A stretch of DNA of 64,000 nucleotides from a phage. The stretch is from the NCBI GenBank assembly GCA_017686895.1, contig GCA_017686895.1_4521.1; one strand, 5' to 3'. The notes below the pieces were generated by a model. That model did no database searches. It was given only the letters and a program-made list of their open reading frames with translations, and was not told where the DNA came from. Positions 31,395 to 35,852 of the stretch are shown piece by piece (within the stretch, counting starts at the first letter, position 1; the number at the start of each line of letters is the position of its first letter). The translations under genes and the position numbers were made by a program.

Positions 31395-31976
31395 ATGACA
31401 TGTCAATCTGAACTTCAAGAACGCGAATATCTCGCAGCACTAATTGATGATAAATTCACTAAACAAGAACAAAACATTCTCTGGGCTTGCACTGATTATA
31501 AGGAAGACCCGGATTTCCACTATGAATTAGACCATCTTGTTCGTAAGCATATGACTTCTACAGTACCAGTAGAACTCTACCGTGGTGTAACTCCAGAAGA
31601 AGTAGAACGTCTTTCCCTTCTTTCTGTTGGATGTCATTGGTCTCCCGGACGAGTAACATCGTTTACAACAGACTTTGGTACGGCCAGACAGTTCTCTGGG
31701 AGTTGGGAATATCAAACGTACACTATTCTTAGTCTCAGGAATGCTCCGTTCATTTTCGATTACTACCAAAACATGGTTAACATTGTACTCGCCGGAAAGA
31801 ACCCTAAGCATGTTATGGAAGAAAAACGTGTTGACGTCCTAGATATGATTGAATCTGAACAAGAATACATGGTCTCAGGTATCTCTAGATTTGAGATTGT
31901 AGAAATTGAAGACTTAGAATATGACCCTTTATCTCGGTTATACAAAATCATTCATTTGAAAATGTTGAATTTTTAG
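31395..31976 (+). CDS. ADP-ribosyltransferase-like protein (ModB position)
   Basis: Arg (YRG), S-x-T (SFTTDFG) and acidic EQEY motifs in R-S-E order; paralog of next ORF. Confidence 0.5.
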   Translation: MTCQSELQEREYLAALIDDKFTKQEQNILWACTDYKEDPDFHYELDHLVRKHMTSTVPVELYRGVTPEEVERLSLLSVGCHWSPGRVTSFTTDFGTARQFSGSWEYQTYTILSLRNAPFIFDYYQNMVNIVLAGKNPKHVMEEKRVDVLDMIESEQEYMVSGISRFEIVEIEDLEYDPLSRLYKIIHLKMLNF

Positions 31977-32033: not shown

Positions 32034-32642
32034 ATGTTTATGCCGTATAACGAGTGTGAAATTGAAGAAATGGTTCGTCGTGCTCAAAACCCCGAATATC
32101 AAGATGTATTGCAGTACGAAATTGATAGTCAATTCAGCGACATTGAACAAAGTGTACTGTGGCAGTGTATGGAAAACAAGCCAGTCTGTATTCAACAGGA
32201 GTTAAGTTCAATCGTTCGTAGAAATTGGACGTCTTCTGTTCCTGAGACAATGTATCGTGGAATCTCTAAGAAAACTATGGCCGCACTCGATGATAAAGGC
32301 ATTGGTAGTATTATTAAATTTGACAGAGTAATGAGCTTCAGCCCAGTGTTCGGTGTAGCACGTAACTTTGCTTCGTATAATTTTTACGGAACATTTAATA
32401 TGTTCTGCATCAAAGATGCACCGTTTGCTTTCAACTTCCGTGAACATATGCTTAACATGATTCTGGCTGCGCCATCTTGTGAGTTCAATGGAGCTTTCCC
32501 TGAAGCGACAAGACGGTCTAATGCTAGACTTATATCTGACGAATGTGAATTTATGCTCCCTATAGGGACTACACTGCGTGTAGATTCTATTATTCAAGAT
32601 GGACGTTATACAATCTGGAATCTGTCTATTGTCAGTTACTGA
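32034..32642 (+). CDS. ADP-ribosyltransferase-like protein (ModA position)
   Basis: YRG, SFSPVFG, DECEF motifs; paralogous to 31395-31976. Confidence 0.5.
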   Translation: MFMPYNECEIEEMVRRAQNPEYQDVLQYEIDSQFSDIEQSVLWQCMENKPVCIQQELSSIVRRNWTSSVPETMYRGISKKTMAALDDKGIGSIIKFDRVMSFSPVFGVARNFASYNFYGTFNMFCIKDAPFAFNFREHMLNMILAAPSCEFNGAFPEATRRSNARLISDECEFMLPIGTTLRVDSIIQDGRYTIWNLSIVSY

Positions 32643-32794
32643 CTGAATTGGAATAACCGGATGGAACTCAGAACCATTATAACACATAAAAAATTAAAGC
32701 ATTTTATGAAAAAAGAGTGTACACTACCTGAGGGCATGATATTATAAGCTTATCAGCTAAATGACCTAACGTCCGTAAGACAGAGGAAAATATT

Positions 32795-33541
32795 ATGTTA
32801 TCAAATAATAAAATTAACAAAATCAATCGTCGTCTTGACCACACCAGAGCTTCTGCGAAGAGACACTCTAAGGATTTTAACTTGGACTTTAATTACCTTA
32901 AAAACATTCTTGATCAAAAGGTCTGCGCTTACTCAGGTGAATCTTTTAATAACTCTGTTGAAGGTGAGAAATTATCCTTAGAACGTTTTAATAATGATAT
33001 AGGCTACATTAAAGGTAATGTTATCCCGGTTAAGAAAAAATATAACACGGCTCGTTCTGATTTAACATTAGAAGAACTTATTGAGAAACGTGATGCCATT
33101 GCAAGACGTATCGCTAATCCTTCTGCCCGTAAAGTAGAGAAACTTAATCTCGACGAGAAGAAATGGGCCCAAATTAAAAAGGTTTATGGTGCTATTTTAA
33201 AAATCCGAGCAAAACGTGAAAATCGTGTTAAGCATATGGCGAACATGATGAAAAATCAACCTTTATCTAACGAATCTAAACTTAGAATTGTTGCTTTAAA
33301 AGCACGCATTAATGGCTCACATCAAGCAGAAGGCCATGAACTTACTAAACTCAACGTTCTTCTTAAAGGCTCTGACTGGAAAACTAAAACTAAATTAACT
33401 GACGCTGAATCGCTTTTCGATACATATGATAAAGTTATCCAAGGTCTGCAACGTTTTGAAAAGATTGGTTTCATTGGTAAATTAAAATTGAAACGTGGCT
33501 TACCACTTAACGCATCATTATTCCAACTGATTAAAGGTTAA
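32795..33541 (+). CDS. basic protein with degenerate HNH-like motif (Srd position)
   Basis: VCAYSGESF...LSLERFNNDIGYIKGNVIPV resembles HNH core but lacks the catalytic His. Confidence 0.35.
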   Translation: MLSNNKINKINRRLDHTRASAKRHSKDFNLDFNYLKNILDQKVCAYSGESFNNSVEGEKLSLERFNNDIGYIKGNVIPVKKKYNTARSDLTLEELIEKRDAIARRIANPSARKVEKLNLDEKKWAQIKKVYGAILKIRAKRENRVKHMANMMKNQPLSNESKLRIVALKARINGSHQAEGHELTKLNVLLKGSDWKTKTKLTDAESLFDTYDKVIQGLQRFEKIGFIGKLKLKRGLPLNASLFQLIKG

Positions 33542-33855: not shown

Positions 33856-35165
33856 CATTTGATGATTTGACTGAAGGCCAGAAAAACGCCTTCAACGTTG
33901 TTATGAAAGCTATTAAAGAAAAGAAACATCACGTAACTATTAATGGGCCTGCCGGTACAGGTAAAACAACCCTTACTAGATTCATCGTTGAAGCCCTTAT
34001 TTCTTCTGGAGAATCAGGTATTATTTTAGCAGCCCCTACACACGCTGCTAAAAAGGTTCTAAGCAAACTTGCAGGTCAAGAAGCATCGACTATTCATAGC
34101 ATTCTTAAAATCAACCCAACTACATACGAAGAAAACGTATTGTTTGAGCAGAAAAAGGTTCCCGACTTAGCCTTGTGTCGTGTACTGTTATTTGATGAAG
34201 CGTCAATGTGCGACCGTCCTCTGTTTAAAATAATGTTAGCTAGTATCCCTAAATGGTGTACAGTAATTGGAATTGGTGACAGATGCCAGATTCGACCGGT
34301 AGACCCAGGCGAATCCACTGCGTATCTAAGTCCTTTCTTCACTCACAAAGACTTCGTGCAATGCAACCTTACAGAAGTTAAACGTAGCAATGCGCCAATT
34401 ATTGATGTTGCGACTGATATTCGTAATGGCAAATGGATTTACGATAAAGTAGTTGATGGGCATGGTGTTCATGGATATACAGACCTTAAATCGTATATGA
34501 TGAACTATTTTAACGTCGTTAAAACTCCTGAAGACCTTTTCGAAAATCGAATGATGGCATTCACAAATAAGTCGGTGGACAAGTTAAATTCAATTATTCG
34601 CCGAAAACTTCTTGAAACAGAAAAACCATTTATTAAAGACGAAGTCATTGTTCTACAAGAGCCATTTACTAAGACATATAAGCTAGACGGTAAAAATATG
34701 ACCGAAATGCTTTTCAATAATGGGCAATTCGTTCGTATTCGAGATGCTGTAGAAACGTCTACATTCGTTAAAGCACGTGGTGTTTCAGGCGAATATATGA
34801 TACGATACTGGAATCTTACAGTAGAAACATATGGTGATGATGAAGAATACATCCGCGAAGATATAAAGGTTATTTCTTCTGAAGAAGAGCTTTATAAATT
34901 CAATTTGTTTTTGGCTAAGACCGCAGAAACATACAAATTTTGGAATAAAGGTGGTAAAGCTCCATGGAGCGAATTCTGGGATGCTAAACGTATGTTCACT
35001 AAGGTGAAGGCGCTACCAGTATCAACCTTCCATAAGGCCCAGGGTATGTCTGTTGACACAGCCTTTGTTTATACACCGTGTATCCATTATGCTGATTCAG
35101 AATTAGCTAAACAGTTGTTGTATGTCGGCACAACTCGTGGTCGTTTTGACGTCCATTTTATTTGA
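33852..35165 (+). CDS. dda: DNA helicase Dda (SF1B)
   Basis: MTFDDLTEGQKNAFNVVMKAIKEKKHHVTINGPAGTGKTT matches T4 Dda as recalled. Confidence 0.93.
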   Translation: MTFDDLTEGQKNAFNVVMKAIKEKKHHVTINGPAGTGKTTLTRFIVEALISSGESGIILAAPTHAAKKVLSKLAGQEASTIHSILKINPTTYEENVLFEQKKVPDLALCRVLLFDEASMCDRPLFKIMLASIPKWCTVIGIGDRCQIRPVDPGESTAYLSPFFTHKDFVQCNLTEVKRSNAPIIDVATDIRNGKWIYDKVVDGHGVHGYTDLKSYMMNYFNVVKTPEDLFENRMMAFTNKSVDKLNSIIRRKLLETEKPFIKDEVIVLQEPFTKTYKLDGKNMTEMLFNNGQFVRIRDAVETSTFVKARGVSGEYMIRYWNLTVETYGDDEEYIREDIKVISSEEELYKFNLFLAKTAETYKFWNKGGKAPWSEFWDAKRMFTKVKALPVSTFHKAQGMSVDTAFVYTPCIHYADSELAKQLLYVGTTRGRFDVHFI

Positions 35166-35174
35166 GAGAAAATT

Positions 35175-35852
35175 ATGAGCACTGATGTTATTATAGATTT
35201 TGAAACATTCGGCAATACATCAAAAGCGGCTGTTATTGACCTTGCGGTTATTGCATATAATTCAGACCCTGAAGTTGTTGAATCATTTGAAGAACTTGTT
35301 CAACGAGGTAAGCGAATTAAATTTAATTTAGCTTCTCAAAAAGGGAAGCGAGTTTTCGCTAAATCCACTATGAAATGGTGGAAAGAACAATCAGCAGAAG
35401 CACGTAAAAACCTGGCCCCATCTGAAGACGATGTCACTACGCTTGAAGGCATTAAAATCTTTTTAGATTATTGTCGAGCTAATAAAGTTGACCAATGGAA
35501 ATCACAGATGTGGTGCCGTGGTATGAGCTTTGACTTCCCGATATTGGTCGATTTGATTCGTGACCTCTATCGTGATGAAGGTGTTCTTGAACCAGATATT
35601 GATACCGATAAATTAGAACCTGTTAAATTCTGGGCTCAACGCGATATTCGTACGGCAATCGAAGCTTACTCGTTGACACGAGGATTAAGTATGTGTCCAT
35701 TACCGATGGGTACTCTAAAAGGATTCGTTGCCCATGATAGTATTCATGATTGTGCTAAAGATATTTTGATGTTAAAATATGCTCAGCGTTATGCGCTTGG
35801 TCTTGAAGATGTACCTGAGAATCCTGACCCGTTAAGTGTAAAACAGCGATAA
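35175..35852 (+). CDS. dexA: exonuclease A (DexA)-like protein
   Basis: 225 aa immediately downstream of dda as in T4; DFETFG N-terminal acidic motif. Confidence 0.6.
   Translation: MSTDVIIDFETFGNTSKAAVIDLAVIAYNSDPEVVESFEELVQRGKRIKFNLASQKGKRVFAKSTMKWWKEQSAEARKNLAPSEDDVTTLEGIKIFLDYCRANKVDQWKSQMWCRGMSFDFPILVDLIRDLYRDEGVLEPDIDTDKLEPVKFWAQRDIRTAIEAYSLTRGLSMCPLPMGTLKGFVAHDSIHDCAKDILMLKYAQRYALGLEDVPENPDPLSVKQR

What the first reader, a model, noticed from the sequence alone, without database searches (positions are those of the whole stretch)
32795..33541. Basic protein with degenerate HNH-like motif at the srd position
The 248-aa ORF contains a segment (VCAYSGESF...LSLERFNNDIGYIKGNVIPV) laid out like an HNH nuclease core, but the catalytic His appears replaced by Glu-Arg. 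That suggests a domesticated, inactive nuclease fold used for nucleic-acid or protein binding. Whether this is the T4 Srd homolog cannot be decided from recall.
Basis: inference. Interest (0 to 1): 0.4.

Follow-up and report, generated by a model that had tools for sequence, protein, structure and literature searches.

The report
Srd protein with PacI-type nuclease domain
This gene is the RB69-group phage version of T4 Srd, a protein reported to speed up host mRNA destruction by RNase E. Its first 108 residues fold like the restriction enzyme PacI, an active nuclease that naturally lacks the usual catalytic histidine, so the missing histidine does not show that Srd is inactive.

Summary
The ORF is real: 32795..33541 on the + strand, 248 aa, pI 10.1. 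It is the ortholog of T4 Srd, with 68% identity (E 4e-124), a phrog_1400 match at E 5.6e-98, and the same modA/modB-srd-dda.1-dda-dexA gene order.

That is the normal state of the PacI clade (His-Me finger group 20), where a loop tyrosine replaces the histidine. Srd keeps the whole PacI set at identical spacing: E63-R64, Y71, N75, N84. These residues are 99-100% conserved across 187 related domains. "Degenerate, therefore inactive" does not follow.

Srd does lack PacI's zinc-binding cysteines. No similarity to sigma-70 was found, so the "anti-sigma factor" label has no sequence support.

The most likely role is the one published for T4: it binds the catalytic half of RNase E and stimulates host mRNA decay. 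I infer that the PacI-like domain binds nucleic acid. Whether it also cuts is open.

The gene is known. The domain assignment is a modest new point.

The parts
32718..32745 (+). Promoter-like site upstream of srd: TGTACA, 16-nt spacer, TATTAT, with a TG extension.
   Evidence: One search found the site, but the scan as a whole is no richer than shuffled sequence. The element lines up with GTTTACA...TGTTATAGT upstream of T4 srd. Function is inferred, not shown.
32795..33541 (+). srd coding sequence (248 aa plus stop), the ortholog of T4 Srd.
   Evidence: Identity to T4 Srd is 68%. The phrog_1400 match is E 5.6e-98. The gene is about 99% identical to Mosigvirus phages.
32795..33118 (+). N-terminal PacI-like His-Me finger domain (residues 1-108): two helices, the beta-beta-alpha core and a capping helix.
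32972..33055 (+). Beta-beta-alpha core (residues 60-87): strand 60-64, loop 65-75, strand 76-80, helix 81-87.
   Evidence: DSSP assignment on both AlphaFold models.
32981..32986 (+). Codons for Glu63-Arg64, aligned with PacI Asp92-Arg93. Arg64 occupies the canonical catalytic His position.
   Evidence: Alignments. Across 187 related domains, position 63 is E or D in 186 and position 64 is R in 185.
33005..33007 (+). Codon for Tyr71, aligned with PacI Tyr100, the only tyrosine in the PacI loop between strands beta1 and beta2.
   Evidence: Y in 186 of 187 domains. Role of the PacI loop tyrosine: PMC5714182 and PMC4081073.
33017..33019 (+). Codon for Asn75, aligned with PacI Asn104. This is the central N of the H-N-H motif.
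   Evidence: N in 187 of 187 domains. Alignments.
33044..33046 (+). Codon for Asn84, aligned with PacI Asn113. This is the metal-ligand position in the core helix.
   Evidence: N in 186 of 187 domains. Alignments. PacI binds its metal through one Asp and one Asn.
33155..33367 (+). Central antiparallel helical hairpin (residues 121-191). Its sequence and length vary among orthologs.
33401..33538 (+). Conserved C-terminal helical module (residues 203-248), containing the motif KLKLKRGLPLNAS.F.LI.G.
   Evidence: Conserved in orthologs down to 37% identity. Helices 203-222, 226-233 and 242-247. No family match was found. Its role as an RNase E-binding or oligomerisation surface is inferred.

Best explanation
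The ORF encodes the Mosigvirus (RB69-group) ortholog of phage T4 Srd. Srd is an early host-takeover protein. In T4 it is reported to bind the N-terminal catalytic half of E. coli RNase E and to stimulate RNase E cleavage of host mRNAs.

Shown here: the protein has three parts.
1. Residues 1-108 form a His-Me finger (HNH-superfamily) domain of the PacI type. It has the clade's characteristic active-site set, Glu/Asp-Arg, a loop Tyr, Asn and Asn, but not PacI's zinc-binding cysteines.
2. Residues 121-191 form a variable antiparallel helical hairpin.
3. Residues 203-248 form a small conserved helical module.

Inferred: the basic PacI-like domain supplies nucleic-acid (phosphate-backbone) binding. 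The helical parts dock on RNase E and/or oligomerise. Together they would act as an adaptor that delivers host transcripts to RNase E or activates the enzyme. On this reading the active-site residues are kept because they form the phosphate- and metal-binding pocket, whether or not the domain cuts.
For: Orthology:
- 68% identity to T4 Srd, E 4e-124.
- phrog_1400 'Srd anti-sigma factor', E 5.6e-98 over the full length.
- 1189 phage records carry a homolog, nearly all T4-like.
- The modB-modA-srd-dda.1-dda-dexA order matches T4.
- The gene still lies just upstream of the dda-type helicase in an Acinetobacter phage of another subfamily.

Fold:
- AlphaFold pLDDT is 86 for the full length and 90.7 for the N-terminal domain.
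- Profile E 4.1e-5 and hhalign probability 94.9%.

Active-site match:
- E63, R64, Y71, N75 and N84 align with PacI D92, R93, Y100, N104 and N113, with identical gaps of 7, 4 and 9 residues.
- These positions are 99-100% conserved in 187 domains.

Function: T4 Srd binds the RNase E N-terminal half and enhances host mRNA decay. This is Qi et al. 2015, as reported in PMC4980113, PMC7430671 and PMC13232886.

The protein is basic throughout, pI 10.1.
Against: - No experiment exists for this phage's protein. The RNase E function is transferred from T4 by homology.
- I could not read the primary Srd paper, only papers that cite it.
- Which part of Srd contacts RNase E is unknown.
- An adaptor that only binds would not obviously need an invariant metal-ligand and tyrosine set. 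That conservation fits a catalytic role at least as well.
- No RNA-binding data exist for any member of this domain family.
Confidence: 0.55

Rival explanations
1. Srd is itself an active metal-dependent nuclease of the PacI type, with a Tyr71-assisted one-metal mechanism. It would nick or cut host DNA or RNA early in infection. The RNase E association would then either target this activity or be a second function.
For: - All PacI active-site positions are kept at identical spacing.
- They are the only invariant or near-invariant residues in a family whose mean column identity is 29%.
- His-Me finger domains reported to have lost activity also lost both the His and the equivalent Tyr (PMC5714182). 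Srd has not.
- PacI is an active enzyme with this configuration.
- Many HNH nucleases work without zinc sites (general knowledge).
- Some relatives carry two to four tandem copies. This would fit a need for two active sites to cut a duplex, as in the PacI homodimer (my inference).
Against: - Zinc bound by the cysteines is stated to be required for PacI cleavage (PMC11529989). Srd has a single Cys.
- As I recall the Qi 2015 abstract, Srd-dependent mRNA destabilisation disappears in RNase E-defective cells and one substrate still needs RppH. This argues against an independent RNase acting on those RNAs. It is from memory and was not verified here.
- No nuclease activity has been reported for Srd.
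Confidence: 0.3
2. One reading: a dead, domesticated nuclease fold with no metal or catalytic chemistry, used only as a protein- or nucleic-acid-binding scaffold. The conserved residues would be purely structural.
For: - The canonical His is absent and the zinc sites are lost.
- No Pfam or NCBIfam HNH model recognises the protein.
- The known phenotype is carried out through RNase E.
Against: - Absence of the His is the normal state of the active PacI clade.
- The acidic metal-ligand position (E/D63), Y71 and N84 are conserved in 186 of 187 domains. A purely structural role predicts weaker conservation than that.
Confidence: 0.12
3. Srd is an anti-sigma factor or a decoy of sigma-70/sigma-S, as most database records annotate it. 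It would act on RNA polymerase.
For: The annotation appears in T4 and many other phage records as 'postulated decoy of sigma factors RpoD and RpoS'. The gene's neighbours, ModA and ModB, modify RNA polymerase and translation factors.
Against: - There is no detectable similarity to E. coli sigma-70. hhalign of the Srd family against RpoD gives probability 0.2%. The best BLASTP segment is 9 of 27 identities, E 0.086 for that single comparison.
- The fold is a His-Me finger plus helices, not a sigma domain.
- The only experimental function I found cited is RNase E stimulation.
Confidence: 0.03

Closest known systems
Bacteriophage T4 Srd (gene srd, AAD42557.1; phrog_1400)
   Same: Same length (248 aa) and 68% identical across the whole protein. 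Same genomic position and orientation between modA and dda.1. The upstream promoter-like element is conserved. The N-terminal signature and the C-terminal motif are both conserved.
   Different: It comes from a different genus (Mosigvirus rather than Tequatrovirus). The central helical hairpin is more diverged. Residue 24 is His here and Arg in T4 and nearly all relatives.
Restriction endonuclease PacI (PDB 3LDY/3M7K; His-Me finger group 20 of Jablonska et al. 2017)
   Different: Sequence identity is only 16-17%. Srd has no Cys4 zinc sites: PacI C66, C109 and C112 correspond to Srd S47, K80 and Y83. Srd carries an extra 140-residue helical C-terminal region. Srd is a conserved phage early gene rather than a bacterial restriction enzyme. 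No DNA cleavage is known for Srd.
Canonical HNH endonucleases (Pfam HNH, HNH_3, Endonuclease_7; for example McrA, Cas9 HNH, Hpy99I, T4 endonuclease VII)
   Same: [quoted passage not shown] PHROG families annotated as endonuclease, HNH endonuclease or endonuclease VII match residues 4-156 at E 1e-10 to 1e-17.
   Different: The general-base His is absent (Arg64). No Pfam HNH-type model matches Srd or any of 142 relatives.
RapZ, an adaptor protein that activates RNase E
   Same: Both are reported to bind the N-terminal catalytic half of RNase E and to stimulate cleavage. The resemblance is functional and is drawn in PMC7430671.
   Different: I found no sequence or fold relationship. RapZ targets one small RNA, whereas Srd affects bulk host mRNAs.

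Membership tests
T4 Srd orthologs (phrog_1400) | Full-length sequence similarity to T4 Srd | tested here: met
   BLASTP gives 68% identity over 247 aa, E 4e-124. The PHROG profile match is E 5.6e-98 and covers residues 3-248.
T4 Srd orthologs (phrog_1400) | Position between modA/modB and dda.1-dda on the same strand | tested here: met
   Window ORFs and their family matches compared with the T4 annotation.
T4 Srd orthologs (phrog_1400) | Binds the RNase E N-terminal half and stimulates host mRNA decay | not testable with these tools
   Known only for T4 Srd (Qi et al. 2015, cited).
His-Me finger / HNH superfamily | [quoted passage not shown] | tested here: met
   [not shown]
His-Me finger / HNH superfamily | Catalytic His (general base) at the end of strand beta1 | tested here: not met
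   The position is Arg64. It is R in 185 of 187 related domains.
His-Me finger / HNH superfamily | Conserved Asn before strand beta2 and a metal-ligand Asn or His in the core helix | tested here: met
   N75 is conserved in 187 of 187 domains and N84 in 186 of 187.
His-Me finger / HNH superfamily | Recognised by curated HNH-type family models | tested here: not met
   No Pfam hit at E up to 1 and no NCBIfam hit at E up to 10 for Srd. None of 142 relatives hits a Pfam HNH model. Only PHROG families annotated as endonucleases match.
PacI-like clade (His-Me finger group 20) | Significant sequence-profile similarity to PacI | tested here: met
   hmmsearch against PDB gives E 4.1e-5, covering profile positions 5-81. 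hhalign gives probability 94.9% and E 4.3e-8. A narrower Srd-only profile did not reach PacI.
PacI-like clade (His-Me finger group 20) | Closest solved structure is PacI | tested here: met
   [not shown]
PacI-like clade (His-Me finger group 20) | Acidic residue plus Arg in place of Asp-His, and a Tyr in the loop after strand beta1 that substitutes for the His | tested here: met
   E63-R64 and Y71 align with PacI D92-R93 and Y100. The feature is defined in PMC5714182 and PMC11529989. That Y100 is the catalytic Tyr is inferred: it is the only Tyr in that PacI loop.
PacI-like clade (His-Me finger group 20) | Two Cys4 zinc sites per subunit | tested here: not met
   Srd has one Cys, C44. PacI C66, C109 and C112 align with S47, K80 and Y83. 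A few relatives, such as P0138, still have CxxC...CxxC.
PacI-like clade (His-Me finger group 20) | Additional active-site His of PacI (the 'H' in 'H, DR, CxxCN') | tested here: inconclusive
   The PacI paper was not available, so I could not identify which His is meant. PacI H62 aligns with Srd V43, a variable position that is H in 55 of 187 domains. PacI H42 aligns with Srd K26.
PacI-like clade (His-Me finger group 20) | Metal-dependent DNA cleavage | not testable with these tools
   This needs biochemistry.
Anti-sigma factor / sigma-70 decoy (database annotation) | Sequence similarity to RpoD | tested here: not met
   hhalign of the Srd family against E. coli RpoD gives probability 0.2%. The best BLASTP E-value is 0.086 for that single comparison.
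Anti-sigma factor / sigma-70 decoy (database annotation) | Binds sigma or core RNA polymerase | not testable with these tools
   I found no experimental report in the searchable literature.

The most novel reading that the evidence does not exclude
Srd, and the large family of phage and giant-virus proteins that share its N-terminal domain, are zinc-free PacI-type nucleases that use a tyrosine instead of a histidine. T4-like phages would then bring their own nuclease to the host RNase E, so that host mRNA shut-off comes from a two-nuclease complex and not from simple allosteric activation.
Probability: 0.25. Interest if true: 0.7.

Novelty: new member of a known kind. Interest (0 to 1): 0.4.

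Why it matters
Srd is present in more than a thousand sequenced T4-like phages. Most records still label it "anti-sigma factor", a name based on a proposed sigma-70 resemblance that does not survive a profile comparison.

Placing its N-terminal domain in the PacI clade does three things.
- It gives the only known phage activator of RNase E a concrete structural model.
- It identifies five residues whose mutation would separate binding from catalysis: E63, R64, Y71, N75 and N84.
- It enlarges a His-Me finger group. The 2017 classification listed 88 members, mostly from giant viruses. The family found here is much larger: 5276 cluster representatives match at E of 0.001 or better, although part of that count comes from the coiled-coil region.

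It also warns against calling an HNH-like domain dead just because the histidine is missing.

Tried and rejected
- Pfam and NCBIfam scans of Srd, and a Pfam scan of 142 relatives, found no HNH-type match, only coiled-coil noise.
- A single-sequence search and a narrow Srd-only profile search of PDB sequences found nothing meaningful: ribosomal protein L17 and a poxvirus core protein at E around 0.3-0.8. Only the broad 85-sequence profile reached PacI.
- The sigma-70 similarity behind the gene's name was tested and rejected.
- A scan of the window's six reading frames for further copies of the domain found only srd.
- The primary papers were not in the library: Qi et al. 2015 on Srd, Shen et al. 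2010 on PacI, and Yang 2011. Their content is cited through other papers or marked as memory.
- Literature searches for a link between Srd and HNH returned only genome-annotation tables.
- I considered a mobile homing endonuclease and set it aside for Srd itself. The gene keeps a fixed syntenic position across subfamilies. Other members of the domain family may well be homing enzymes.

Full report
**The observation.** The window has an ATG-initiated ORF at 32795..33541 on the + strand, encoding 248 aa. The product is basic: pI 10.1, 52 Lys+Arg against 27 Asp+Glu, and a single cysteine.

**Identity of the gene.**
- The protein matches PHROG family phrog_1400, "Srd anti-sigma factor", at E 5.6e-98 over its whole length.
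- A translated search of 50,697 phage records finds homologs in 1189 of them, almost all T4-like phages of enterobacteria and Acinetobacter. T4 itself matches at 68% identity.
- Direct comparison with the annotated T4 srd product gives 169 of 247 identities, E 4e-124.
- The neighbours match T4: two ModA/ModB-like ADP-ribosyltransferase ORFs upstream, then dda.1 (Pfam Phage_Y01A), dda helicase and dexA downstream.
- The DNA is about 99% identical to Mosigvirus phages such as vB-Eco-KMB38, JS09 and PhAPEC2.
- In an Acinetobacter phage of another subfamily the homolog still lies just upstream of the dda-type helicase.

**Anatomy.** An alignment of 19 orthologs, down to 37% identity, shows a very conserved N-terminal 90 residues, a variable middle and a conserved C-terminal motif. 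AlphaFold2 on this alignment gives a confident model with mean pLDDT 86. It has three parts:
- residues 1-108: two helices, strands 60-64 and 76-80, helix 81-87 and a capping helix;
- residues 121-191: a long antiparallel helical hairpin;
- residues 203-247: three short helices.

A separate model of residues 1-109 has pLDDT 90.7.

**Is the N-terminal domain HNH-like?** Curated libraries say nothing. There is no Pfam hit at E up to 1, no NCBIfam hit at E up to 10, and no PDB hit with the single sequence or a narrow profile. PHROG families annotated as endonuclease, HNH endonuclease and endonuclease VII do match residues 4-156, at E 1e-10 to 1e-17.

A profile search of 1.84 billion cluster representatives found 5276 proteins at E of 0.001 or better. 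Some of these match only the coiled-coil region. I extracted 187 domain instances from the best 150 hits and the orthologs.

A profile of 85 diverse instances then hit restriction endonuclease PacI (PDB 3LDY/3M7K) at E 4.1e-5 in a search of all PDB sequences. A Geobacter HNH endonuclease and Cas9 HNH domains followed at non-significant E-values. hhalign of that profile against PacI residues 30-119 gives probability 94.9% and E 4.3e-8.

**The missing histidine.** The residue at the end of strand beta1, where HNH enzymes have their general-base His, is Arg64, preceded by Glu63. This is not a decayed motif. Conservation across the 187 domains is as follows:

| Srd position | Residue | Domains (of 187) |
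|---|---|---|
| 44 | Cys | 185 |
| 63 | Glu or Asp | 186 |
| 64 | Arg | 185 |
| 66 | Asp or Asn | 186 |
| 70 | Gly | 183 |
| 71 | Tyr | 186 |
| 75 | Asn | 187 |
| 84 | Asn | 186 |

In the 85-sequence alignment the mean column identity is only 29%. There, the only invariant columns are C44, R64, N75 and N84, with G48, G70 and Y71 nearly invariant.

The alignments to PacI pair Srd E63-R64 with D92-R93, G70-Y71 with G99-Y100, N75 with N104 and N84 with N113. The gaps between these residues are identical: 7, 4 and 9.

The literature held here describes the PacI active site:
- PacI lacks the catalytic histidine, and a tyrosine in the loop after beta1 takes its role. PacI defines group 20 of the His-Me finger superfamily, which has no Pfam model (PMC5714182).
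- Its single metal ion is held by one Asp and one Asn, and the tyrosine is positioned as the general base (PMC4081073).
- The tyrosine follows the DR motif (PMC11529989).

Y100 is the only tyrosine in that PacI loop, so I take it to be the catalytic one. That step is an inference. The same classification paper notes that the two groups believed to be inactive, Smad MH1 and Enpp, have lost both the histidine and the equivalent tyrosine. Srd has not lost the tyrosine. The step from "His replaced" to "inactive" therefore fails.

**Differences from PacI.** PacI has two Cys4 zinc sites, and zinc is stated to be needed for cleavage. Srd has one cysteine. PacI C66, C109 and C112 align with S47, K80 and Y83. 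A few relatives, such as P0138, still have CxxC...CxxC next to the DR motif and look like intermediates.

PacI is also said to have an active-site His. I could not identify which one, because the primary paper was unavailable. The two candidates align with Srd K26 and V43. Position 43 is variable in the family.

Srd also carries about 140 extra helical residues. For these, structure searches gave only generic helical-hairpin matches.

**The anti-sigma annotation.** The T4 record calls Srd a postulated decoy of RpoD and RpoS. hhalign of the Srd family against E. coli RpoD gives probability 0.2%. The best BLASTP segment is 9 of 27 identities at E 0.086 for that single comparison. The fold is not a sigma fold. 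I found no experimental support for this annotation in the searchable literature.

**What it most likely does.** The only experimental function I could trace is from Qi et al. 2015, as reported by three later papers. T4 Srd associates with the N-terminal catalytic half of RNase E and accelerates host mRNA decay. A 2026 paper still cites only that work, so the mechanism seems to be unresolved.

By orthology and shared host, I assign the same role here. I infer that the basic PacI-like domain binds the nucleic-acid backbone, and that the helical hairpin and conserved C-terminal module provide docking or oligomerisation. My confidence is 0.55.

The main rival is that the domain is a working, tyrosine-dependent nuclease (0.3). 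The conservation pattern favours it. Against it are the loss of zinc sites and the reported RNase E dependence of the phenotype. That last point is from my memory of the abstract and was not verified here. A purely structural dead fold gets 0.12, and the anti-sigma reading 0.03.

**Breadth of the family.** A Foldseek search of predicted viral structures with the N-terminal model gives 93 hits at E of 0.001 or better. They include phage proteins labelled anti-sigma factor, HNH endonuclease or uncharacterised, and giant-virus proteins from Pithovirus, Klosneuvirus and Clandestinovirus. Some members have two to four tandem copies. One four-copy protein is recorded from the dinoflagellate Polarella glacialis. 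The 2017 classification counted 88 members in group 20 and did not mention Srd.

**Novelty and score.** The gene and its phenotype are known. Automated annotation has occasionally labelled an ortholog "HNH endonuclease" (H62). The new points are the specific assignment to the PacI clade, with the full tyrosine-type active-site set retained, and the lack of any sigma-70 similarity. I file it as a new member of a known kind, interest 0.4. If Srd proves to be an active nuclease docked on RNase E, the interest would be about 0.7. I put that probability at 0.25.

Noticed in passing
window 32640-32794: The 150-nt gap upstream of srd aligns with the T4 srd upstream region at 75% identity. Conserved features include the promoter-like element and an exactly conserved CGTCCGTAAGA just before the ribosome-binding site. 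This could be a conserved 5'-UTR element, a processing site or a regulatory site.
   Followed up: partly
window 32864-32866 (codon 24 of srd): This Srd has His24. The position is Arg in at least 90% of the 19 aligned orthologs and in 161 of 187 related domains. The closest database proteins, at 98% identity, have Arg. It is a rare substitution at a conserved basic position in the first helix.
   Followed up: no
window 31395-31976 and 32034-32642: Two tandem paralogous ORFs of 193 and 202 aa match the PHROG 'RNA polymerase ADP-ribosylase' family (E about 1e-37). They correspond to T4 modB and modA. Neither matches any Pfam model at E up to 1.
   Followed up: partly
window 35165-35175, compared with L001 5870-6372: In T4, two small genes (dexA.2 and dexA.1) lie between dda and dexA. 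In this window dexA starts 10 nt after the dda stop, so both small genes are absent.
   Followed up: no
protein P0089: A 126-aa database protein joins an unrelated 70-residue N-terminus to the last 55 residues of T4-type Srd. From memory the N-terminus resembles T4 Arn, but I did not check this. It is probably the product of a laboratory T4 deletion that fuses two genes, not a natural domain shuffle.
   Followed up: partly
proteins P0081, P0115, P0119, P0128, P0134 and others: Many relatives contain two to four tandem copies of the PacI-like domain. P0081 has 852 aa and four copies, and is recorded from the dinoflagellate Polarella glacialis. Tandem copies might replace the homodimer that PacI forms.
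   Followed up: partly
[not shown]
   Followed up: no
phage records: Orthologs of this one gene are variously annotated as anti-sigma factor, hypothetical protein, HNH endonuclease (Klebsiella phage Roth79) and anti-termination protein (phage PHB13).
   Followed up: no
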